The notes beneath the pieces were generated by a model, which had not been told where the DNA came from, did no database searches, and saw only the letters and a program-made list of their open reading frames with translations. Shown in pieces: positions 27,139-37,740 of a stretch of 37,740 nucleotides of DNA (positions within the stretch are counted from its first letter, which is position 1; every line of letters starts with the position of its first letter). Source of the stretch: a virus (lineage: Duplodnaviria; Heunggongvirae; Uroviricota; Caudoviricetes). Location of the stretch: positions 1-37,740 of the IMG/VR virus record IMGVR_UViG_2778261277_000009. The stretch is one strand, 5' to 3'. The translations under genes were made by a program, and so were the position numbers.

Positions 27139-27997
27139 ATTCGGGGAGTTTCAGCTTTGGATTGCGAGAATGGACGATTACAAAACTTTCCCGGCCTTTC
27201 TTCTCAATTGAACAGTCGAGATAGCCGATTGTTTTAAGCTGTTCTATCGCTTTCTTAATGATACGGTTTTGCTCGCCAACAGCTGACTGCAAAGCCAGGC
27301 GCTCACGGATTCGCGCGAACGATAGCGGCAACGGGTTCTGCGGAAGGCTTTCGATGAAAGTGTAAATGGCTTGTGCAGCTTCTTTCTTCGGAAGGGCACG
27401 CAAGGCGTGGTGTTGCAACAGAACGCGATAATCAAGCTGGAACAGCTCCCACAGCTTCGAATCAGCCTCCAGCTCTATCAGATCAAGGTCAGCATCAAAA
27501 CGCCCGACCTTCAGCAGACCAGTCTGATAGCCGCCTTTAGCATCTTTTCCGCGCTTAAAAGCGATACCCTTGTTACGCAAGCGTCCAAGTGATTCATGAA
27601 TGGTTAAACGCAGTTTCGCATCCAGACGTTTTGAGGGGAAACCACAGGCTTTAGCGAATTCCTGAAACGATAACTGGATGGTGTTTGAGGACAAGCCGTA
27701 TTTGCTGAACGCGTAGATGACACCGATCCACGTTTTGAAATCAGTATCCATATCGAGTCGAGGACCGGTGATTTTAATATCATCGTAACCCTCGGCTTTA
27801 GCTATCTCCAGCTGGGAAAACGCTTTGGTGGCATCAATCTCTTTACTTTCTCCTTTGCTCTTTGATGGCTTCGGAACGAATACCCCCAAGCGCATCAACG
27901 CTACAGGCTGGACAGTGTTGTTTGAATTAACTGTTAGTTCTTTTGCCTTACTTTCAATGTCTGCGTAAAGAATATCGGAGATAAATGATTGATTCAT
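27137..27997 (-). CDS. repA: plasmid replication initiator RepA
   Basis: 286-aa ORF flanked by iteron arrays on both sides; MNQSFISDILYADIESKAKEL N-terminus. Confidence 0.95.
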   Translation of the reverse strand: MNQSFISDILYADIESKAKELTVNSNNTVQPVALMRLGVFVPKPSKSKGESKEIDATKAFSQLEIAKAEGYDDIKITGPRLDMDTDFKTWIGVIYAFSKYGLSSNTIQLSFQEFAKACGFPSKRLDAKLRLTIHESLGRLRNKGIAFKRGKDAKGGYQTGLLKVGRFDADLDLIELEADSKLWELFQLDYRVLLQHHALRALPKKEAAQAIYTFIESLPQNPLPLSFARIRERLALQSAVGEQNRIIKKAIEQLKTIGYLDCSIEKKGRESFVIVHSRNPKLKLPE

Positions 27998-28015
27998 ATT
28001 ACTTTTTCCGAATTG

Positions 28016-28274
28016 TGTGGATAGTTTTTATAAGTGGTGATAACTACCCAGGCTTTCCCGTCAGCACACATCCTATATCCCGCCAGCACACATTAGCAAC
28101 CCGTCAGCACACATTTTTATCCCTCCAGCACACATCGTTTTCCCTCCAGCACACATCGCGATACACTTCTAAACCAGACGTGGCGCGGCCTGCAACGATC
28201 AGGGATCTATATGGATCTAATTGGGATCTGTATGGACCTAATTATTGGATCTACCCAGTGGATAATGTGGATAA
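28016..28274. other. plasmid origin oriR (DnaA boxes, incC iterons, GATC-rich repeats)
   Basis: DnaA-box-like TGTGGATAG (28016-28024); five GATC sites at 28197-28251 in short AT-rich repeats; tandem DnaA boxes AGTGGATAA/TGTGGATAA at 28257-28274. Confidence 0.8.
28055..28157. repeat. incC iterons (5 direct 19-bp RepA sites) within the origin
   Basis: Five copies of CC(C/G)(T/C)CAGCACACAT(C/T) spaced 20-22 bp. Confidence 0.85.
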
Positions 28275-28302
28275 GTGAAAAACCGGCCAACATAGCCGGT
28301 TG
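28274..28302 (-). terminator. rho-independent terminator after the upfA-like gene
   Basis: AACCGGC-caacata-GCCGGTT hairpin followed on the minus strand by TTTTTCAC. Confidence 0.55.
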
Positions 28303-28314
28303 GAAGGAAGGGTA

Positions 28315-28707
28315 TTATTCTACGCTTTCGATAAGAAGACCATGTTCATAGCATTTAAGCTCATCGCCTTCATACAGGAACTGGTATCCAATACCACCAT
28401 ATTCAGGCACATTAGGGAATAACTCATCACTTACCGAAGAACAAATCACACCAATGCAGCGATCAACGCCTTCTCGTTCTTCAGTGCTGAAAAAATCCTC
28501 TTCGGTAAGAACATGAGTGCATTGCTCATCAGCATAGGTCGGAAATACATGCTCGATGCAATCCGGGTGTTTTAAACCAAGCTGATTGGCAAGCTCGAAA
28601 GCATGACGGTATTGTTCAGATCCTGGCTTGCCAACAGTGATTTGCTCAATTTTGTAGATTGAAGTCGCTTTGTTGATAGTTTGCTTTACTGTTACTTTAT
28701 CAGACAT
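28315..28707 (-). CDS. hypothetical protein (UpfA position)
   Basis: 130-aa ORF, acidic, Cys-containing. Confidence 0.5.
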   Translation of the reverse strand: MSDKVTVKQTINKATSIYKIEQITVGKPGSEQYRHAFELANQLGLKHPDCIEHVFPTYADEQCTHVLTEEDFFSTEEREGVDRCIGVICSSVSDELFPNVPEYGGIGYQFLYEGDELKCYEHGLLIESVE

Positions 28708-28718
28708 AAAAATCCCTT

Positions 28719-29051
28719 TTAGTTACCGCTGATAGCGCGGTTGTAATCATTAACGTTGCGATTCTTCCTGTTAATCCCCATCAGCATCGTTTCTGTATCA
28801 AGGATATACGCTGGCAGATCATCAAAATATTCACTGCTAAACTCTGGCATCCTGCACATAAACGCACTTTTGGGGGCAGGGTGGTTAACCTTTGTCGGCG
28901 TCGGCGTTAAATTCGCTGATCGACTCCCGGAGCAACCGCTGAGTGTCAGCAGGAATACGCTGGCGAACATTACCCGCCGCAACCAGTTGTTTCTGAACTT
29001 CAGCTTTTCGTTCCATTTGCCTGTCAGCATACTTGGCTTGTTCTGATTCAT
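28719..29051 (-). CDS. outer-membrane lipoprotein, o-spanin-like (Rz1-like; Mlp position)
   Basis: Lipobox LTLSGC, Pro-rich mature part with a second Cys; starts inside the upstream gene in a different frame and extends 166 nt past its stop; AGGAAG SD before the ATG at 29051. Confidence 0.5.
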   Translation of the reverse strand: MNQNKPSMLTGKWNEKLKFRNNWLRRVMFASVFLLTLSGCSGSRSANLTPTPTKVNHPAPKSAFMCRMPEFSSEYFDDLPAYILDTETMLMGINRKNRNVNDYNRAISGN

Positions 29052-29307
29052 TTTTCACTTCCTGGCTGTGAAAATGTTGCTCTGCTTTGTTCATCGTCTC
29101 AATGGTCTGGTTAAGATCCTTTATTGACTTATCACGTTCCTTAACAGCCTGATCAAGACTGCCAATTTTCTCGATGGCTTGCTTTAGCTGATGACGTTCC
29201 CATACAAACCCAGCACCAACAAGTGCGCAAATCAGAACAAGAACACCAGTAGCAGCAAGTTTCTCCTTCAAAGACAAAGCTGTTTTTAACGTAGAAAAGA
29301 ATGACAT
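28885..29307 (-). CDS. type II inner-membrane coiled-coil protein, i-spanin-like (Rz-like; PpfA position)
   Basis: Start chosen at the ATG with an AGGAGG SD (MSFFSTLKTALSLKEKLAATGVLVLICALVGAGF); N-terminal TM helix followed by a charged coiled-coil periplasmic domain. Confidence 0.5.
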   Translation of the reverse strand: MSFFSTLKTALSLKEKLAATGVLVLICALVGAGFVWERHQLKQAIEKIGSLDQAVKERDKSIKDLNQTIETMNKAEQHFHSQEVKNESEQAKYADRQMERKAEVQKQLVAAGNVRQRIPADTQRLLRESISEFNADADKG

Positions 29308-29346
29308 GTCTTCCTCCTGAAGAAAAATTATCAATGAAGTCCTTTG

Positions 29347-30135
29347 TTACTGTGCCGCTTTGTTTAATTCATCAAGAACAGAATCAGGAACCAAAGCGGC
29401 AACTGCGCTGGCTGTGCTGGCCTTATTTGCTGATGCTTCCGCAAGCGCGGTACCGATAGCATGGTTATAAGCAGTTATGGCTACGTTGGCGCTTTCATTC
29501 GCTCGTTCATACTGCTGTTGTAACGCAGTTGTGGGCGCTGTTGTCTGGTTGAAAACAACCCCAAACTGTTCAGTTGCTACTTTCAGAGATTCAATTTGCT
29601 CTTCTGTTAGTGTTGGTGGGGGAGTGGCAGTGCCGCCGCCTGAACCAGAGCCTGACGAGCTTACTGAGCCAGTGTTAAGGGTCTGGTTAATCTCCCCCAT
29701 AGCAGCGACTAAACTTGATGTATTAAGCGCGTTAACAGCGTCCTCAAGCGATTTAGTAATATTCACATCACCAATGGCAATAGAGATCGGCAGTTCTGAA
29801 ACTTCTCGCTCATTAGCACGGCAGTAAACATCCCAACCAATATCGAGTTGAAGCAGCATTGACAGATCTGCATAACCAGCCAACAGGTCCGCGTGCTTAG
29901 TTGCCAGTTCTCCAATGTTCGTTAAGCCGGTTGTAGTTGTTCTGATCGTTGAAACATAACTGGTAATAGTGTCGGGATAGACAATTGTATCCAGAATTAA
30001 TCCGGTCAATTCTTCTGCAAGCAGTTTTGCTGTGTTAGCACTGTTTCGTGCCGATGTTATGGCACCAGGTGTTTTCATCCCACCAGCGGCGGCCAATTTT
30101 TTATATGCGGATAACTGGTAGTCTTTTTCCAGCAT
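29347..30135 (-). CDS. hypothetical protein (UpfB position)
   Basis: Start at the ATG with an AGGAGA SD (MLEKDYQLSAYKK); Ser/Thr/Gly-rich C-terminal half. Confidence 0.5.
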   Translation of the reverse strand: MLEKDYQLSAYKKLAAAGGMKTPGAITSARNSANTAKLLAEELTGLILDTIVYPDTITSYVSTIRTTTTGLTNIGELATKHADLLAGYADLSMLLQLDIGWDVYCRANEREVSELPISIAIGDVNITKSLEDAVNALNTSSLVAAMGEINQTLNTGSVSSSGSGSGGGTATPPPTLTEEQIESLKVATEQFGVVFNQTTAPTTALQQQYERANESANVAITAYNHAIGTALAEASANKASTASAVAALVPDSVLDELNKAAQ

Positions 30136-30143
30136 GATATCTC

Positions 30144-30428
30144 CTAACTTACCTGAACCAGGCCGTCTCCGGACGCTACGGTAGATCCGCATGAAACAGG
30201 GTCACCAACGCATACGATCCCTTTACCATTGACGGTAAACCATGCCCTGGTTGATATAGCTTGCCCACCGTGCGTACTGTTTCCATCGGTATGCTGTGCA
30301 TATTGCTTACCATCAACTAACACTTCGACTCCGTTGACTTTAAGTAGTGGTTCACTCTCTACAGGAGGCCTGGATGGGAATCCTCCGTGCCCCGAACAAA
30401 TGCTGTCTTTTGTTGCAATACTTGCCAC
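30144..30428 (-). CDS. small Gly/Cys-rich protein with PAAR-like repeats (tentative), GTG start
   Basis: 94 aa with CSGHGG, STHGGQ and DPVSCGST motifs, reminiscent of PAAR spike-tip proteins; the first codon is GTG with GGTGA upstream. Confidence 0.4.
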   Translation of the reverse strand: MASIATKDSICSGHGGFPSRPPVESEPLLKVNGVEVLVDGKQYAQHTDGNSTHGGQAISTRAWFTVNGKGIVCVGDPVSCGSTVASGDGLVQVS

Positions 30429-30509
30429 GTCATCACCAATTATTTGCTCTGATTTTCGTTATTTTAACTCAGGTTGTTTGTGGTCTACATGGCGTTTACC
30501 TATTATAAA

Positions 30510-30526
30510 ATTGCTCTAATAAATAT
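30510..30526 (+). promoter_or_regulatory. C1 operator in front of the uhr-hrdC-dmt operon
   Basis: ATTGCTCTAATAAATAT, 16/17 to consensus, about 70 nt upstream of the first ATG that has an SD. Confidence 0.7.
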
Positions 30527-30597
30527 TGTTTTTTATGTCGTATTTTCGGTACCATTCAGCCATCGCCCTTCAATGGGCATTTGTTTGGAGTCGTCAG

Positions 30598-30882
30598 ATG
30601 CAGATGGAGCTAATAAGCCGCAAAGAGTTCGATAGCCGTGTAACCAGCGGTGAACTCGACAACTTGCAGGCTATCAAGGTGAAAGAAGGCTTTTGCCTCA
30701 TTGGGAATCAGAGCGGAACAAATCGCGTTTTTATGCTTCGCCGTACGGATTTGAAGCCATTTGTCTGGAAGAACGAAATTGGTCCCAGCTCATACGCTCA
30801 AACGAGGGGGGGCCACAACCTGGCCTTTTTCTACAAAGACGAGCTTTCTGTGGTTGATATTCAAGGGTTACAACATGTTTAA
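30598..30882 (+). CDS. small protein upstream of the rdgC homolog (Uhr-like)
   Basis: ATG at 30598 with GGAG 8 nt upstream; 94 aa; its stop overlaps the next gene's start. Confidence 0.5.
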
Positions 30883-31780
30883 GCACTGGAAAAACATTAC
30901 TATTTATAAACTTTCTCGTGAGGCGGATCTGACCGACTTAGAAGATAAAAAGAAAATGATCCTTTTCACGCCATGCGGTAGTCAGGATATGGCCAAGTTC
31001 GGTTTTGTATCTCCATTTGGTGATAATTCCGAAGTTATCGCTATGCATGGAAATGGTTTTATCCTTGTTGAAGCAAAGCGCGAAACAAAAATTCTTCCCC
31101 CGCCGGTTATCCAGCGAGCTATTCAAGAAAAAATTGAAAAACTTGAGCAAGAACAAGCGCGTAAACTGAAGAAAACAGAGAAGGACTCCCTGAAAGACGA
31201 AGTTCTGCATTCTCTTCTGCCACGAGCTTTTTCAAAGTTTTCTGTTATCCAGGCGATCTACGACGGTTCAACTAAACGTATCTATATCAATGCCAGCGCG
31301 CGGCAGGCAGAGGATATGCTCGCGCTTATGCGTAAGTCTCTGGGTTCTCTTCCTGTTGTTCCCCTGAGTGTTGAAAATCCCATTGAATTAACGCTGACCG
31401 ACTGGGTACGTGATGCTCGTGCTCCACAGGGATTTCAAATGGGGGATGCGGCAGAACTTAAGGCAGTGCTTGAGGATGGCGGTATCGCCCGAGTGAAAAA
31501 GCAGGATTTGGGAAGCGATGAAATTTCCACACACCTGGAAGCTGGCAAGCTCGTCACAAAGTTGGCACTCGACTGGCAGAACCGCATTAAATTTACACTG
31601 GACCATAACTTCAGCCTTACCAGCGTCAAATTTGCGGATGAATTGCTTGAGCAGAACTCTGATATTGATAGTGAAGATGTAGCGCAGCGACTGGACGCAG
31701 ATTTCTTCCTGTTAACCAGTGAAATTTCGTGCCTGGTTGATGCTCTGGTAAATGCCCTGGGCGGAGAGGCTAAGCAGTGA
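30875..31780 (+). CDS. hrdC: RdgC-family recombination-associated protein
   Basis: 301 aa; N-terminus [16 protein letters not shown]...[15 protein letters not shown] and ...[28 protein letters not shown] match the E. coli RdgC pattern as recalled from memory. Confidence 0.85.
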
Positions 31781-33795
31781 GAGAGCTGTGCTATGGATCT
31801 GTTTGCAGTGGAATTGAAGCCGCGAGCATTGCCTGGGAACCGTTGGGTATGCGTCCGGCGTGGTTTGCTGAGATCGAGCCTTTTCCATCTGCCGTTCTTG
31901 CGCACCGCTGGCCCCATGTCGCCAACCTTGGCGACATGACAAAACTCGCCCAAAAAGTCCAGGCAGGAGAAATTGAAGCCCCTGATATGCTCGTCGGGGG
32001 TACGCCTTGTCAGGCATTCAGTATCGCGGGCTTACGTGGTGGGCTTGATGATGAGCGCGGCGCGCTAACTTTGAAGTATGTGGAGCTTGCAAATGCAATT
32101 GACGACAAACGGGCTGAGTCCTTCCTCAAACCAGCAGTTATCGTCTGGGAAAATGTCCCAGGAGTCCTGTCATCAGCAGATAACGCGTTCGGATGTTTCC
32201 TTGCCGGATTGGCTGGAGAAGATGCGCCATTCGAACCTGGTGATCGACCTGAATCACGAAAAAGTAATACGTTCTGGCGGTGGGATGTCAAAACCGGTTG
32301 CCATGCTCCAAAGTGGCCGCAGTGTGGTTGTATTTATGGACCGCAGCGAAAAGTGGCCTGGAGAATCCTTGATGCCCAATACTTCGGAGTGGCACAACGA
32401 CGCCGACGCGTGTTTGTTGTCGCAAGTGCTCGAACAGACCTCGATCCCGCAACGGTACTTTTTGAGTTCGAAGGCGTGCGCCGGAATATTGCGCCGAGCA
32501 GAGGCGAGGGGAAGGAAACTACCAGATATACTTCAAACATCGCTATCAGAACTTGCGATGATACAAACATAATTGCCATGGCACATGGGCAAGGAGGGGC
32601 TGAGATAAAAACCGATAATTCGGCACCAACTTTGACATGTAACCATGAAGCACCAATTGTATTGCTCGGCGACGGTAGAATGCGCCGTCTTACCCCTGTC
32701 GAATGTGAAAGGCTGCAAGGTTTTCCTGATGGGCATACGTTGATCCCGACGGAAAAGCGTAAAAAAGTTAATTCAGATGAACTGGCATATCTTCGCAATC
32801 ACTATCCAGATTTAAGCGAAGAAGAGGCCGCGATGCTTGCAGCTGACGGACCGCGTTACAAAGCGATCGGCAATAGTATGGCAATACCAGTAATGTGCTG
32901 GATTGGAGATCGGATTACTAAGGCCGTATGTCGGCAGAAAGAAGGAAGTGAAACAAAAGAGCGAAAAGTTAAACCAGCGGCAGAATTCGAACGGTCCATA
33001 TTCAAATGGGCTGGTGGAAAATTTGGTGTTCTGGAACAAATCTTTCACTATTTGCCAGAAGGGAAGCGCCTGATTGAACCTTTCGTTGGTGGCGGAGCTG
33101 TCTTCATGAATGCCGGATACCAGGAAAATCTGCTAAATGATGTGAATGCTGACCTGATTAACTTTTACAAGACTCTGCAACGCGAGGCGCATTCACTTAT
33201 CACTCTGGCACATCGTTTCTTCCTGGACTACAACACCCAGGAGGGATTCCTGGCAGTACGGAATGCGTTTAACAAACAAGTCTATGATGATTTACATCGC
33301 GCAGCGGCGTTTTTGTTCCTGAACCGACATTGTTTTAATGGATTGACGCGCTACAACCAGGCCGGTGAGTTCAATGTCGGTTATGGGAAGTATAAAACTC
33401 CGTATTTCCCATTACAGGAGATGGAAGCCTTCCTCGGTGCGGAAGGGCGGTCTGAGTTTGTATGCGGTGATTTTGCAGCAGTGATTGAAGCTGCCGGAGA
33501 AGGAGATGTCATCTTTTGCGATCCGCCGTATGAACCGCTCCCCAATACAGAGGGGTTTACGAACTATTCCGGTCATGACTTTAAGTTTGAAGAGCAAAAA
33601 CGCCTGGTGTCTCTGTTGACGGATGCTCATCGCCGAGGTGCAAAGGTACTCATTACTAACAGTGGCGCGCCAAACGTCAGAGAACTTTATCAGGACAGTG
33701 GCTTCAGAGTGGAACCTCTCTTTGCCAGACGTTCTGTGTCTTGTAAGGGAGACACTCGTGGTGTTGCTCATGACGTTATGGCTATATTGCTCTAA
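31777..33795 (+). CDS. dmt: bifunctional DNA methyltransferase: N-terminal C5-cytosine MTase fused to C-terminal Dam-like N6-adenine MTase
   Basis: GTG start overlapping the rdgC stop; C5-MTase motifs [11 protein letters not shown] (PCQ), ENVPGV (ENV), QRRRVFVVA; C-terminal FKWAGGK and DPPY motifs. Confidence 0.9.
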
Positions 33796-33815
33796 TAAAT
33801 TTATTAGTGTAATAT
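33786..33815 (+). promoter_or_regulatory. C1 operator (perfect consensus, Op72-like) overlapping a sigma70-like promoter toward the tRNA/ban region
   Basis: ATTGCTCTAATAAATTT exact (33786-33802), followed by a partial inverted half-site; -35 TTGCTC, 17-nt spacer, -10 TAATAT (33810-33815). Confidence 0.7.
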
Positions 33816-33989
33816 CACCTCAATGAATCGTGATTTATAGAGCGATTTAGCTGTTAGCCGCGACAGGCGCGGCGGCAAGTATGGCGGGGTAGTGACTCCT
33901 TCCCCATCATGACGCCGAGTTGCCAGGTTGACCATACGCCTAAGTGGCAACACCGAAGTGCGTTACGAGCTTCCAGTTTGCCCATCTTC

Positions 33990-34015
33990 GGGTGGGCGTT
34001 TTTTTCAGGGTTTTC
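33990..34015 (+). terminator. strong rho-independent terminator about 190 nt downstream of the operator/promoter
   Basis: GCCCATC-UUCG-GGTGGGC stem with tetraloop followed by G and seven T. Confidence 0.7.
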
Positions 34016-34471
34016 GTCATGGTTAGCGACTTTGCGGCGGTTTAGAAACTGACCATTAAAGTAAATGCAAACGATGATCTGATGATGGTAGCGGCCTAAG
34101 AAGCCAGACGCCACGGGGTATGAGTCGTCCCCCGTCAAAAAATCGACCGCAGAGTGTCCCCGTCTGTGTATTAGGGAACGGGGAGGCACAACAGGTAAGG
34201 GCGCTGGTTCGATTAACCAGATGAGCGAGAAGGGGTCATCTTTTTGGTCAGCGTCCTTACCTGTTACGTCCTTTTTCATTCTGCGTAACAGCAATTGCTT
34301 TTAGCAATTTGAAGATAACGTCCTACTACGGGGGTATCCCGTCATGCTGAAGGCGCTAATCACGCTGGAAGCCAGGGTTGTGCATCCCCTGTTACCGAAT
34401 TGCAGCCAGGGCGCGGTGCGCCGAAAAGCATACGGAGGTGGAAGCCCTCGCCGGAGACGTACCCGGCAAGT

Positions 34472-34547
34472 GATGGTGTAGCTCAGCGGTTAGAGCGGTT
34501 GACTGTTAATCAACGGGTCGATGGTTCAAATCCATCCACCATCGCCA
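34472..34547 (+). tRNA. tRNA-Asn (anticodon GTT)
   Basis: Hand-folded cloverleaf: 7-bp acceptor GATGGTG/CACCATC, D-arm TAGCTCAGCGGTTAGAGC, anticodon loop CTGTTAA, T-loop TTCAAAT, encoded CCA. Confidence 0.85.
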
Positions 34548-34549
34548 AT

Positions 34550-34625
34550 GCCGGTTTAGCTCAGTTGGTAGAGCGCCTGCCTTGTAAGCAGGATGTCAGC
34601 GGTTCGAGTCCGTTAACCGGCACCA
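34550..34625 (+). tRNA. tRNA-Thr (anticodon TGT)
   Basis: Cloverleaf with acceptor GCCGGTT/AACCGGC, anticodon loop CTTGTAA, T-loop TTCGAGT, encoded CCA; starts 2 nt after tRNA-Asn. Confidence 0.85.
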
Positions 34626-35188
34626 GCACAACAGGTAAGGGCATTCTCCCTTATAGGGCTTGGCTTAAATGCATCGAGTGCTCTTACCGTTGTGATGAAG
34701 TGCAGCTCTTTGAAGCAACCAGAAGATAAGCATCTGGCTTCACAACATAAACCGCAGGAACGACCAATAAACGGTAGTCCGTATGGAGAACACCCCGTTG
34801 AGGAAGAGGCCTGGCCGGAACCGTAACCGGCGACTGGTAATGTGTGTAAATGGAGCGAAATATGTGGGCGTTTAACGGGATACGGGTTGTAACAGCGATT
34901 ATTAACGGCGAACTTAAGTATTCACGTTTCGAGACAAATGAACGTGATGGGAAATGTATTGGTGTGCGGTTAGTAAGAGAATACGCATAACAACTACAAC
35001 GTTGAGAACACTGGCGTAACGGGGTCATATCCCAATCTATGAATAAATGTTGCGTTGCAGCGTGACAACCAGTGTTCTCAACATTGTGGTGAATGCACAG
35101 GCTGATGTGCCGCAACTACAGTAGTGCGCGCTTTGCGGGGCTTGCTACAACCCTGTGTCGGAGTTCAGCACCGACCATCACAATCACT

Positions 35189-35275
35189 GGAGAGTAGGGA
35201 GCATGGTGCTCAAACGGTCTTGAAAACCGTCCCATTGCGCAAGCGATGATGGTTCGATTCCATTACTCTCCGCCA
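35189..35275 (+). tRNA. tRNA-like element, class II (long variable arm), anticodon-arm identical in type to tRNA-Ser(UGA); atypical D-arm
   Basis: Perfect 7-bp acceptor GGAGAGT/ACTCTCC plus G and CCA; anticodon stem-loop ACGGT-CTTGAAA-ACCGT; T-arm GATGG-TTCGATT-CCATT; 17-nt variable region; D-arm only 4 bp with a 5-nt loop. Confidence 0.4.
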
Positions 35276-35538
35276 GTGCAACGTTAAGAGTATTTGGCTA
35301 ATTAAGCGAATGCCGGAAGCAGAACCGGATCACCAAATGCGTACAGGCGTCATCGCCGCCCAGCCAGCCAAGTGCTCTTACCATTGCGGTGAATGCGGCT
35401 ATGCGCACGCGGAACAGTTAAAACAATCCTCCTTAGTGGTTAAGTCAAACATCCCGGCGTTAATTGTTAACTGGTTAACGTCACCTGGAGGCACCAGGCA
35501 CCGCAGCTTTTTTATTCGTTAAATAATGGAGTGAGAGG

Positions 35539-35775
35539 ATGCAGAACAATCCGAACAAATGTCGAACGCTATGGGTGCGGTTATATATTTATGCCGTCCT
35601 CTGTTTGATTGTGTCACTGGTTCTGTATGTTTGGCTTTTGCCAAATATGATCTCATCTAACAGCACAATACTTGTATTGTTGGGAGTCCTTTTCGCGCTC
35701 ATTTACCCGGCTTTCGCAGTAGTCTTTTTTCGTGAAAAAACCAGGAAATTAATTAATGAAAAAAACGTTGATTAG
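35539..35775 (+). CDS. upl: small two-helix membrane protein upstream of plp (Upl-like)
   Basis: 78 aa with two hydrophobic helices; GGAG SD; overlaps the plp start. Confidence 0.5.
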   Translation: MQNNPNKCRTLWVRLYIYAVLCLIVSLVLYVWLLPNMISSNSTILVLLGVLFALIYPAFAVVFFREKTRKLINEKNVD

Positions 35776-36583
35776 TGCAGCGATTATTTTGGGTTCTTTA
35801 TGTCTGACCGGATGCGATCGGGTAGAGCCAGGTAACGTAGGGATCAAAGTAAATAAGCTGGGGGATGATAAAGGTATCGGTGAAGTAGTTGGTGTTGGTC
35901 GCTACTGGACAGGCTTGAATACTGAAGTTTATATCTTCCCGACCTTTAAGCAAATGAAGACATACGATGAGCCGTTCAGCTTCCAGATGAGCGACGGAAC
36001 AACCATTGGTTACCACATCGGCGTAGCCTACAAGGTTGATCCAGCAAAAGTCACAACGGTATTTCAGACCTATCGCAAAGGTGTAGATGATATTACTGAT
36101 ACCGATCTACGCCAGAAGGTTGCAGATGCTCTGAACCGGTTAGCCAGCAAAATGACCACCGACAAATTTATCGACGGTGGCAAATCTGAATTGCTTGATG
36201 CAGCCCTTAAAGACATTCAGGAAGAAATGACGCCAATCGGCATTCAGGTGATGAGCCTCTCTTATGTAGGTAAGCCAGAATATCCGCCAACAGTTATTGA
36301 CAGTATTAACGCCAAAGTTACGGCAAACCAAAAAACCCTGCAACGCGAGCAAGAGGTCAAACAACGTGAAGCAGAGGCCAACATGCTGCGCGCGGAAGCT
36401 GCCGGACAGGCTGATGCTATTCGCACAAAAGCCCAGGCCGAAGCTGATGCCATTCGTTTACGTGGTGAAGCTCTGCGCCAGAACCCCGGTGTTATGGAGT
36501 TGGAAGCGATCAACAAATGGAACGGTACATTACCGCAGTATATGACCAGTAATACCGCTGTTCCGTTTGTTCCGGTGAAATAA
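35756..36583 (+). CDS. plp: lipoprotein Plp (SPFH/band-7-like fold candidate)
   Basis: Signal peptide with lipobox LCLTGC; C-terminal Ala/Glu/Gln/Arg-rich coiled coil. Confidence 0.65.
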   Translation: MKKTLISAAIILGSLCLTGCDRVEPGNVGIKVNKLGDDKGIGEVVGVGRYWTGLNTEVYIFPTFKQMKTYDEPFSFQMSDGTTIGYHIGVAYKVDPAKVTTVFQTYRKGVDDITDTDLRQKVADALNRLASKMTTDKFIDGGKSELLDAALKDIQEEMTPIGIQVMSLSYVGKPEYPPTVIDSINAKVTANQKTLQREQEVKQREAEANMLRAEAAGQADAIRTKAQAEADAIRLRGEALRQNPGVMELEAINKWNGTLPQYMTSNTAVPFVPVK

Positions 36584-36610
36584 AAGTGTAAGCAAAATTG
36601 GCAGTAATCC

Positions 36611-36686
36611 GGCCCTTTAGCTCAGTGGTTAGAGCTGGCGACTCATAATCGCACGGTCACCGGTTCAAGTCCGGTAGGGGCCACCA
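36611..36686 (+). tRNA. tRNA with anticodon CAT (Ile2/lysidine-type or Met)
   Basis: Acceptor GGCCCTT/AGGGGCC, D-arm TAGCTCAGTGGTTAGAGC, anticodon loop CTCATAA, T-loop TTCAAGT, encoded CCA. Confidence 0.8.
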
Positions 36687-36972
36687 CATTTGGTTGTAAC
36701 ACGGCGTCTGGCACATGCGTCGTTAGCGGTCTGGTGACGTTAAAAGGGGGGAACCTTGCCCCTAGCTCAGGCAACGAACCAGGTAGCCGGAATGTGCAAG
36801 CCACCGTTTGTTGTTTTTCGGGTAAAGGGATTCACCATCCTGGCGATTCGGTGTGACAGCCGGGAAGAGTCCGGCGCATTAATCCTGATTTTCTGGTGAT
36901 GACTCATATCGTTAGGAGTGATTTGAGTATGCCGATTATATCTGACATTCAGCACACCAGGATGGAGTGTTA

Positions 36973-37680
36973 ATGTCTGCATCCCCTCTTGAATCCATGC
37001 CAAATTCCCTTAGTGCAGAACAAGCTGTGCTTGGTGGCTTAATGCTTGATAACTGCCGCTGGGATGAAGTTGCAGATCGTATAGTTGCTGATGATTTTTA
37101 TACCAGTGCTCATCGTGAAATTTTCAGTGAGATGGAGAGGTTATTAAGTCATGGCAAACCGATTGATTTGATAACACTTGCTGAAGCACTTGAACAGAAC
37201 GGTAAATTAGAACGCGCCGGTGGTTTTGCGTACCTTGCGGAGATGTCAAAGAACACGCCCAGCGCGGCAAATATTTGTGCTTATGCGGATATCGTTCGTG
37301 AACGCGCGGTTGTTCGTGAAATGATTTCCGTCGCAAATGAAATAGCCGAAGCTGGATATGTGCAGGATGGCAGGGGCAGCAATGAATTGCTGGATATGGC
37401 CGAGCGCCGCGTTTTTGAAATAGCTGAAAAACGACAAAAGAGCGGTAGTGGTCCAAAAGATATCGCCAGCATTCTCGATGCAACGGTATCTCGCATAGAA
37501 GAGTTGTTTCAGCGACCGCATGATGGTGTAACGGGGCTTGATACCGGATTTACCGATCTCAATAAGAAGACGGCAGGACTTCAGCCGTCCGATCTCATTA
37601 TTGTCGCCGCCCGCCCATCGATGGGGAAGACCACGTTTGCGATGAATCTCGTCGAAAATGCCGCAGTTCGTAACGATTAG
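36973..37680 (+). CDS. ban: DnaB-family replicative helicase Ban, interrupted by an in-frame TAG at 37678-37680 (frame continues to the window end)
   Basis: N-terminus SAEQAVLGGLMLDN...ISVANEIAEAG...SMGKTTFAMNLVENAA is DnaB-like; the TAG sits where DnaB has a Lys, and downstream codons read PVLVFSLELPSHQLMLRSLA in the same frame. ATG at 36973 has GGAG 5 nt upstream. Confidence 0.8.
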   Translation: MSASPLESMPNSLSAEQAVLGGLMLDNCRWDEVADRIVADDFYTSAHREIFSEMERLLSHGKPIDLITLAEALEQNGKLERAGGFAYLAEMSKNTPSAANICAYADIVRERAVVREMISVANEIAEAGYVQDGRGSNELLDMAERRVFEIAEKRQKSGSGPKDIASILDATVSRIEELFQRPHDGVTGLDTGFTDLNKKTAGLQPSDLIIVAARPSMGKTTFAMNLVENAAVRND

Positions 37681-37740
37681 CCCGTATTGGTTTTTTCCCT
37701 AGAGTTGCCGAGCCACCAGCTGATGCTGCGCTCACTGGCT

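What the first reader, a model, noticed from the sequence alone, without database searches (positions are those of the whole stretch)
37678..37680. In-frame amber codon interrupts the ban helicase gene at a conserved lysine position
The DnaB-like frame reads ...GKTTFAMNLVENAAVRND-TAG-PVLVFSLELPSHQLMLRSLA. Conserved helicase sequence continues in the same frame after the stop, and the TAG sits where DnaB has a lysine (a single AAG to TAG change). This is either a genuine amber allele or pseudogene, a signature of a laboratory-derived mutant, or a sequencing error. None of the tRNAs identified here has a CUA anticodon, so phage-encoded suppression is not evident.
Basis: seen in the sequence. Interest (0 to 1): 0.5.

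Follow-up and report, generated by a model that had tools for sequence, protein, structure and literature searches.

The report
Stop codon in a contig's noisy end
The amber codon in the phage P1-type helicase gene ban is really in the deposited sequence, but it is one of six odd base changes found nowhere else and packed into the last 63 bases of a draft-assembly contig, so it is most likely an assembly or read-end error and not a real mutant gene.

Summary
Observation confirmed: TAG at 37678-37680 is in frame in a ban/DnaB-type helicase gene that starts at 36973. Relatives have AAG (Lys) there, and no tRNA in the window has a CUA anticodon.

The window is a complete draft contig (NLFZ01000039.1, 37,740 nt, GCA_002225765.1), so the TAG lies 63 nt from a contig end. 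It is the first of six substitutions (37678, 37696, 37697, 37701, 37705, 37726). The 1,358 nt before them are identical to the closest relatives.

- All six are transversions; only one falls at a third codon position.
- Two replace methionines, including the one in the SLEM motif. K236, M245 and M252 are invariant in 117 homologues.
- None of the six occurs in 130 ban segments checked base by base. About 900 phage, plasmid and E. coli records all keep at least six differences from this stretch, and exact scans of three contig collections found no variant k-mer.
- Near-clonal sister contigs show one private difference in 7.6 kb.
- Only 14 nt follow the last variant, as expected for a dead-end tip supported by very few reads.

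Best explanation: contig-end artefact (about 0.8). A real ban knockout is biologically tolerable, because ban is non-essential, but poorly supported (about 0.13). Low interest. Reads or PCR would settle it.

The parts
36973..37677 (+). ban (P1 DnaB-analogue replicative helicase) codons 1-235: N-terminal domain, linker and start of the RecA-like domain, including Walker A GKT (codons 217-219)
   Evidence: ORF and translation. Pfam PF00772 and PF03796. 97.9% nt identity to P1 ban (AF234172), aligning to the same annotated start. 100% identical to AP026755.1 and NZ_CP117623.1 over 36900-37677, and to AP026755.1 from 36320.
37678..37680 (+). In-frame TAG at ban codon 236, where every relative has AAG (Lys)
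   Evidence: A at 37678 in 130 of 130 other ban segments. The 23-mer carrying the TAG is absent from the viral, genome and metagenome collections.
37678..37726 (+). Cluster of six private transversions: 37678 A>T (Lys>stop), 37696-37697 AG>TC (Ser>Ser), 37701 T>A (Leu, synonymous), 37705 A>T (Met245>Leu in SLEM), 37726 A>C (Met252>Leu)
   Evidence: Position-by-position comparisons. No record is better than 145/151 or 52/57 identical across this stretch. Variant k-mers are absent from the collections.
37681..37740 (+). Twenty further ban codons in the same frame after the TAG, running into the physical end of contig NLFZ01000039.1
   Evidence: Translation. Contig length is 37,740, equal to the window length.
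36611..36686 (+). tRNA with CAT anticodon (annotated tRNA-Ile2/trnI in P1) just upstream of ban, showing the conserved P1 gene order
   Evidence: ARAGORN. P1 annotation.
35756..36583 (+). SPFH/Band_7 lipoprotein gene upstream of the tRNA and ban. It occupies the position that tciA-tciC hold in P1.
   Evidence: ORF. PF01145. Annotation in relatives.

Best explanation
The amber codon is most likely a contig-end artefact in the draft assembly, not a property of the plasmid. The contig's last 63 nt appear to be a dead-end tip built from one or very few poor-quality or chimeric read tails. That tail carries six miscalled bases, and the first of them turns AAG (Lys236) of an otherwise normal P1-type ban gene into TAG. 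On this reading the real gene is an intact 454-codon ban, identical or nearly identical to WP_024236442.1. Shown: contig-end position, clustering, privacy, mutation spectrum, hits on invariant residues. Inferred: that few reads support the tail.
For: (1) The window is the entire contig NLFZ01000039.1 (37,740 nt) of GCA_002225765.1, so the TAG is 63 nt from a contig end. (2) Against the closest relatives the window is identical over 36320-37677 (1,358 nt), then differs at six positions within 37678-37726. If six differences fell at random over this 1,421-nt tract, all six would land in the last 63 nt with p about 8e-9. (3) Near-clonal sister contigs from independent runs (L059, L061, L063; 99.95-99.97% identical over 7.6 kb) leave the window only one private difference (34333). 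Six in 63 nt then has Poisson p about 4e-16. (4) All six are transversions and five are complement swaps. Natural differences in the same window are about 60% transitions, giving p about 0.004 for six of six transversions. Four of the six lie at first codon positions, one at a second and one at a third, the opposite of divergence under selection. (5) K236, M245 (SLEM motif) and M252 are invariant in 117 enterobacterial Ban/DnaB homologues. (6) None of the six bases is seen in 130 other ban segments. In 432 plasmid, 456-457 E. coli and 18 phage records the best match still carries all the differences. No exact variant k-mer occurs in IMG/VR, GTDB-representative genomes or JGI metagenomes, and a control scan of IMG/VR with the codon left open found 92 stretches. 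(7) Only 14 nt follow the last variant. A real allele carried by all plasmid copies would be tiled by reads running further into this unique gene, and a bubble branch in a k>=21 graph could not have rejoined the main path. This is inference from how assemblers work. (8) The 235-aa product exists on this one NCBI contig only, and ORFs predicted for a real variant continuation are not in the 15-billion-protein collection.
Against: No reads or quality values are available, so the support for the tail is inferred. The other contig end (1-400) is clean. The error spectrum (A>T three times, T>A, G>C, A>C, no indels) is not the classic signature of any platform I can name. AGC>TCC happens to preserve serine. 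Loss of ban is tolerated: CRISPRi scores P1 ban non-essential (PMC10695390), and frameshifted ban alleles occur in other assemblies. A real knockout is therefore biologically possible.
Confidence: 0.8

Rival explanations
1. Genuine null allele: this wild P1-like plasmid, or a subpopulation of its copies, carries a real multi-nucleotide mutation patch. The patch truncates Ban after residue 235, removing all of the ATPase domain beyond Walker A. The plasmid survives because host DnaB serves its replication.
For: ban is non-essential for P1. Other assemblies carry ban split by a T5>T4 frameshift 13-17 nt downstream of this codon, so ban inactivation does seem to occur naturally. The sequence is what was deposited.
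Against: Six private transversions in 49 nt beside 1,358 identical nt do not fit ordinary mutation accumulation. No other sequence shares even one of them. No donor for a templated or gene-conversion event was found in the window, in K-12 dnaB, or among 5,426 E. coli genomes. Lying within 63 nt of a contig end would be a coincidence of about 0.3% (2 x 63 / 37,740). A fixed allele should not end the contig 14 nt after the last variant.
Confidence: 0.13
2. Engineered or laboratory allele: a designed edit, for example by oligo recombineering, that introduces a stop together with silent and Met>Leu changes.
For: The six changes span 49 nt, which would fit one oligo. Two are synonymous, including a two-base Ser>Ser swap. 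Three fall in the hexamers of the P2dbn promoter predicted in the P1 annotation (-35 at 37700-37705, -10 at 37722-37727).
Against: The contig is not laboratory P1. It carries an SPFH gene in place of tciA-C and an extra tRNA-Ser. It is only about 97-98% identical to P1, and near-clonal sisters occur in several unrelated sequencing runs. ATG>TTG would not remove a bacterial start codon. No published construct was found, although the one literature search made was not exhaustive.
Confidence: 0.02
3. Functional recoding: the TAG is read through by a suppressor tRNA or by programmed readthrough, so full-length Ban is still made.
For: The helicase frame continues after the stop.
Against: No CUA-anticodon tRNA is present among the four tRNAs in the window. 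No relative has a stop at this codon. The downstream Met>Leu changes hit invariant residues, which argues against a maintained functional gene.
Confidence: 0.01

Closest known systems
Bacteriophage P1 ban (DnaB analogue; AAQ14047.1 in AF234172) and its orthologues in P1-like phage-plasmids (e.g. WP_024236442.1)
   Same: 97.9% nt identity to P1 ban over 36900-37740, and 100% to WP_024236442.1-encoding plasmids up to 37677. The alignment starts at P1's annotated ban start. The upstream tRNA(CAT) is the same. DnaB N-terminal and DnaB_C domains and Walker A are present.
   Different: An in-frame TAG at codon 236 and five further private substitutions, two of them Met>Leu at invariant positions. 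The gene runs off the contig end, so codons 257-454 cannot be seen.
E. coli DnaB replicative helicase (PDB 6bbm and others)
   Same: The intact relative's Ban aligns end to end with E. coli DnaB (E = 8e-234). Lys, SLEM and MMR are conserved at the affected positions.
   Different: Plasmid/phage-borne accessory copy. The DNA is too diverged (longest shared word 20 nt) for host dnaB to have donated the variant bases.
Dead-end 'tip' or low-quality read tail at the end of a draft-assembly contig
   Same: The errors sit only in the last 63 nt, the sequence before them is perfect, the bases are seen nowhere else, and the sequence stops 14 nt after the last error.
   Different: Reads were not seen, the assembler and platform are unknown, and the opposite contig end shows no such noise.
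Naturally frameshifted ban alleles (T5>T4 at window-equivalent 37691-37695) in other assemblies
   Same: The disruption lies in the same 20-nt neighbourhood of ban and shows that ban-null P1-like elements may exist.
   Different: It is a single-base homopolymer change found on many independent contigs and different backgrounds. It is not a unique cluster of transversions and does not sit at contig ends.

Membership tests
DnaB-family replicative helicase (P1 Ban orthologue) | DnaB N-terminal domain (PF00772) | tested here: met
   E = 4.7e-36, residues 9-110.
DnaB-family replicative helicase (P1 Ban orthologue) | RecA-like C-terminal domain (PF03796) with Walker A | tested here: inconclusive
   Only profile positions 1-46 of 255 lie before the TAG. 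Walker A GKT is present. The rest lies beyond the stop or the contig end.
DnaB-family replicative helicase (P1 Ban orthologue) | Conserved SLEM motif and following MMR after Walker A | tested here: not met
   The window reads SLEL and LMLR. Both Met are invariant in 117 homologues. I take this as evidence that the tail is erroneous, not that the gene is a different kind of helicase.
DnaB-family replicative helicase (P1 Ban orthologue) | Uninterrupted ORF of about 454 codons | tested here: not met
   Stop at codon 236, and the contig ends at codon 256.
DnaB-family replicative helicase (P1 Ban orthologue) | P1-type synteny (tRNA-CAT upstream, Punavirus backbone) | tested here: met
Amber-suppressed or recoded gene | Cognate suppressor tRNA (CUA anticodon) encoded nearby | tested here: not met
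   ARAGORN finds GTT, TGT, TGA and CAT only. The host genome could not be examined.
Amber-suppressed or recoded gene | Stop codon conserved at the same site in relatives | tested here: not met
   130 of 130 other ban segments have AAG.
Contig-end assembly artefact | Anomaly confined to the terminal bases of a draft contig | tested here: met
   Contig length equals window length. All six changes lie in the last 63 nt, and the 1,358 nt before them have none.
Contig-end assembly artefact | Variants absent from all other sequences, including near-clonal relatives | tested here: met
   The near-clonal contigs themselves stop before ban, so they only set the background rate.
Contig-end assembly artefact | Low read support or low base quality for the terminal bases | not testable with these tools
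   No reads or quality values are available.

The most novel reading that the evidence does not exclude
The six-base patch is real. A single clustered mutational event, or a heteroplasmic hypermutated patch, in a wild P1-like plasmid simultaneously truncated Ban and altered both predicted hexamers of the internal P2dbn promoter. This would point to an unrecognised localised mutagenic process or to selection against ban in this lineage. The nearby recurrent T5>T4 frameshift alleles would then mark ban as a repeatedly inactivated gene.
Probability: 0.08. Interest if true: 0.35.

Novelty: not a real feature. Interest (0 to 1): 0.07.

Why it matters
If real, it would be one more null allele of a gene already known to be dispensable for P1, which is of modest interest. 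Its practical value is as a cautionary example. An apparent premature stop in a conserved gene should be checked against contig boundaries and close relatives before it is read as biology. Here that check turns a possible amber mutant into a probable 63-nt assembly tail.

Tried and rejected
1. Gene conversion from host dnaB: rejected. K-12 dnaB does not carry the variant bases, and its longest shared word with ban is 20 nt. The last 57 nt hit only ban in 5,426 E. coli genomes.

2. Templated mutation from a quasi-repeat or hairpin: rejected. There is no second copy of the variant 20-mer in the window, even with three mismatches. No significant inverted repeat or fold exists in the region (z = +0.97).

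3. Finding the neighbouring contig of the same assembly: failed. Ten guessed proteins were looked up, among them wild-type C-terminal fragments and variant post-TAG ORFs. Only the full-length Ban and a generic MMRSLA... ORF exist in the collection. Look-ups by Band_7 and by a 141-aa lineage-specific ORF found near-clonal Logan contigs, but those stop at about 35483-35503, before ban.

4. Recurrent contig ends at ban codon 234 (16 contigs) and contig starts at codon 254 (11 contigs) first looked like a special unassemblable segment that coincides with the variant patch. The simpler explanation is that fragment lengths in these clusters are spread widely, and the codon-234 break abuts a common G/T polymorphism at 37675, carried by 21 of 130 segments. 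That fits mixed or co-resident P1-like elements. I do not count it as evidence for biology at this site.

5. Searching papers for the assembly accession (NLFZ..., GCA_002225765) found nothing.

6. Re-aligning the tail with indels did not reduce the number of differences (by eye).

Full report
**What is in the sequence**

An ORF starting at ATG 36973 encodes the N-terminal 235 residues of a DnaB-type helicase and stops at TAG 37678-37680. The same frame then continues for 20 codons to the last base of the window. Pfam finds the DnaB N-terminal domain and the first 46 of 255 positions of DnaB_C, including Walker A.

The stretch 36900-37740 is 97.4-98.2% identical to ban of P1, P7, RCS47, SJ46 and other Punavirus records. 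It is 98-99.3% identical to several hundred P1-like plasmids. P1's annotation places ban at the same start, downstream of the same tRNA(CAT).

Relatives have AAG at the codon and E. coli DnaB has AAA. ARAGORN finds tRNA-Asn, -Thr, -Ser(TGA) and -Met/Ile2(CAT), and no CUA anticodon.

The exact 235-aa product is recorded on a single contig, NLFZ01000039.1 of assembly GCA_002225765.1. Its length is 37,740 nt, the length of the window. The window is thus a whole draft contig, and the TAG lies 63 nt from its end.

A position-by-position comparison with the closest relatives (AP026755.1, NZ_CP117623.1, E. fergusonii NZ_AP028823.1 and ten further contigs encoding the same Ban) shows two things:
- There is no difference at all from 36320 to 37677 (1,358 nt).
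- Six differences follow at 37678 (A>T, Lys>stop), 37696-37697 (AG>TC, Ser>Ser), 37701 (T>A, Leu synonymous), 37705 (A>T, Met245>Leu in SLEM) and 37726 (A>C, Met252>Leu).

The four nearest natural differences upstream (35692-36319) are all transitions.

**Are the six changes seen anywhere else?**

No.
- Over 37590-37740, none of 432 plasmid records or 456 E. coli records exceeds 96.0% identity, which is exactly the six mismatches.
- Over 37684-37740, the best of 457 E. coli records is 52/57, which is the five non-amber changes.
- Exact scans for the amber 23-mer, a 35-mer, the variant 28-mer and the variant 27-mer found nothing in IMG/VR, GTDB-representative genomes or JGI metagenomes.
- A control scan of IMG/VR with the codon left open found 92 stretches.
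All 124 that align without a gap have the reference base at the other five sites. The remaining six are T5>T4 frameshift alleles.
- K236, M245 and M252 are invariant in 117 enterobacterial Ban/DnaB proteins.

**Is this ordinary divergence?**

A lineage-specific 141-aa ORF led to near-clonal sister contigs from independent sequencing runs (L059, L061, L063). They are 99.95-99.97% identical to the window over 27854-35487. Against them the window has one private difference in 7.6 kb (34333).
- Six private differences in 63 nt then has a Poisson probability of about 4e-16.
- Six differences placed at random in the 1,421-nt tract would all fall in its last 63 nt with probability about 8e-9.
- All six are transversions, against about 40% among natural differences in this window, so p is about 0.004. 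Five of them are A<>T or G<>C swaps.
- Four hit first codon positions, one a second and one a third.

None of this resembles either purifying-selection divergence or neutral decay of a pseudogene. Neutral decay should have scattered changes over the whole gene.

**Mechanism**

The pattern is what a dead-end tip at a contig end looks like: perfect sequence, then a short error-laden tail contributed by one or a few read ends. Only 14 nt follow the last variant.

If the variant bases were carried by all plasmid copies, reads would tile on into the rest of this unique gene and the contig would not stop there. If they formed a bubble, the branch would need at least k-1 matching bases to rejoin the main path. 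This last step is inference from how assemblers work. I could not see reads, and I do not know the platform or the assembler.

I looked for a biological donor for a templated multi-base event and found none:
- K-12 dnaB does not carry the variant bases and shares at most 20 nt with ban.
- The variant 20-mer has no second copy in the window.
- No other E. coli sequence matches the tail.
- The region has no notable inverted repeat or fold.

**Why a real allele is not excluded**

Ban is dispensable for P1 in a dnaB+ host (CRISPRi 'NE' and D'Ari et al. 1975, as cited in PMC10695390).

While looking for the neighbouring contig I found many contigs in which ban is split into a 249-aa ORF and a 204-aa ORF. 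The cause is loss of one T from the T5 run at window-equivalent 37691-37695. Some of those assemblies look error-prone, but others are short-read isolate or metagenome assemblies. Naturally inactivated ban genes therefore probably exist, and a null allele would be viable.

Also against the artefact reading: the other contig end is clean, and the substitution spectrum is not a textbook platform signature. I therefore give the artefact 0.8 and a genuine allele 0.13.

An engineered allele (0.02) is unlikely because the backbone is a wild mosaic P1-like plasmid, with an SPFH gene in place of tciA-C and an extra tRNA-Ser. Suppression or recoding (0.01) has no support.

**A lead that I set aside**

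Sixteen contigs from unrelated assemblies end at ban codon 234 and eleven start at codon 254, bracketing the variant patch. This looked like a recurrently unassemblable segment.

However, the fragment clusters contain break points spread over much of the gene. The codon-234 break also sits immediately before a common G/T polymorphism at 37675 (Asp/Tyr235), carried by 21 of 130 segments. Forks of this kind are expected when two P1-like elements or strains are mixed. It does show that draft assemblies often break inside ban, which fits this contig ending there.

**Comparison with what is known, and verdict**

The gene is an orthologue of P1 ban on a P1-like (Punavirus) phage-plasmid. Nothing about the locus is new. 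The stop codon is present in the deposited record but is most probably not a biological feature.

Novelty: not a real feature. Interest: low.

The decisive test is trivial: pile up the isolate's reads on this region, or PCR-sequence it.

Noticed in passing
L024:1252-2615, L025, L028, L030 (window-equivalent 37691-37695): Many independent contigs carry ban with the T5 run shortened to T4. This splits the gene into a 249-aa ORF and a 204-aa ORF that overlap at TGATG. The 204-aa product is indexed in 40 blocks of the collection. Either it is a recurrent natural frameshift allele of a dispensable gene, or it is a homopolymer error in some assemblies.
   Followed up: partly
window 34333: This is the only other private base of the window relative to near-clonal sister contigs. 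The window has G inside a G-run (ACGGGGGTA) where all nine relatives compared have T. It could be a real SNP or a second small error in this assembly.
   Followed up: partly
L035:3741-7028, L039:4339-7380, also L047, L052, L062: In several relatives the Dmt DNA methyltransferase is 1,013-1,095 aa instead of the window's 672 aa. The longer versions carry weak Hint_2 and LAGLIDADG_3 Pfam hits, which suggests an intein with a homing endonuclease inserted in the methylase gene of some P1-like plasmids.
   Followed up: no
window 35189-35275: A tRNA-Ser (anticodon TGA) lies in a 650-nt stretch (about 34836-35482) that mostly does not align with the E. fergusonii, E. coli O165 and E. albertii relatives. 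It is not among the tRNAs annotated in the P1 stretch examined (Asn, Thr, Ile). Near-clonal Logan contigs break at its right edge (35483-35503).
   Followed up: no
L010-L015 ends (window-equivalent 37674-37675) and L016-L023 starts (37730-37732): Contigs from unrelated assemblies repeatedly end at ban codon 234 and start at codon 254. The left break abuts a common G/T (Asp/Tyr235) polymorphism. The cause of the right break was not identified.
   Followed up: partly
window 37700-37705 and 37722-37727: Three of the six private substitutions fall in the -35 and -10 hexamers of the sigma-70 promoter P2dbn predicted inside ban in the P1 GenBank annotation (TTGAGA>TAGAGT, GATGAT>GATGCT). This is probably coincidence.
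   Followed up: no
window 1-3000: The other end of the contig lies inside the tail-fibre gene region. It shows no cluster of mismatches against its closest relative over the first 400 nt.
   Followed up: partly
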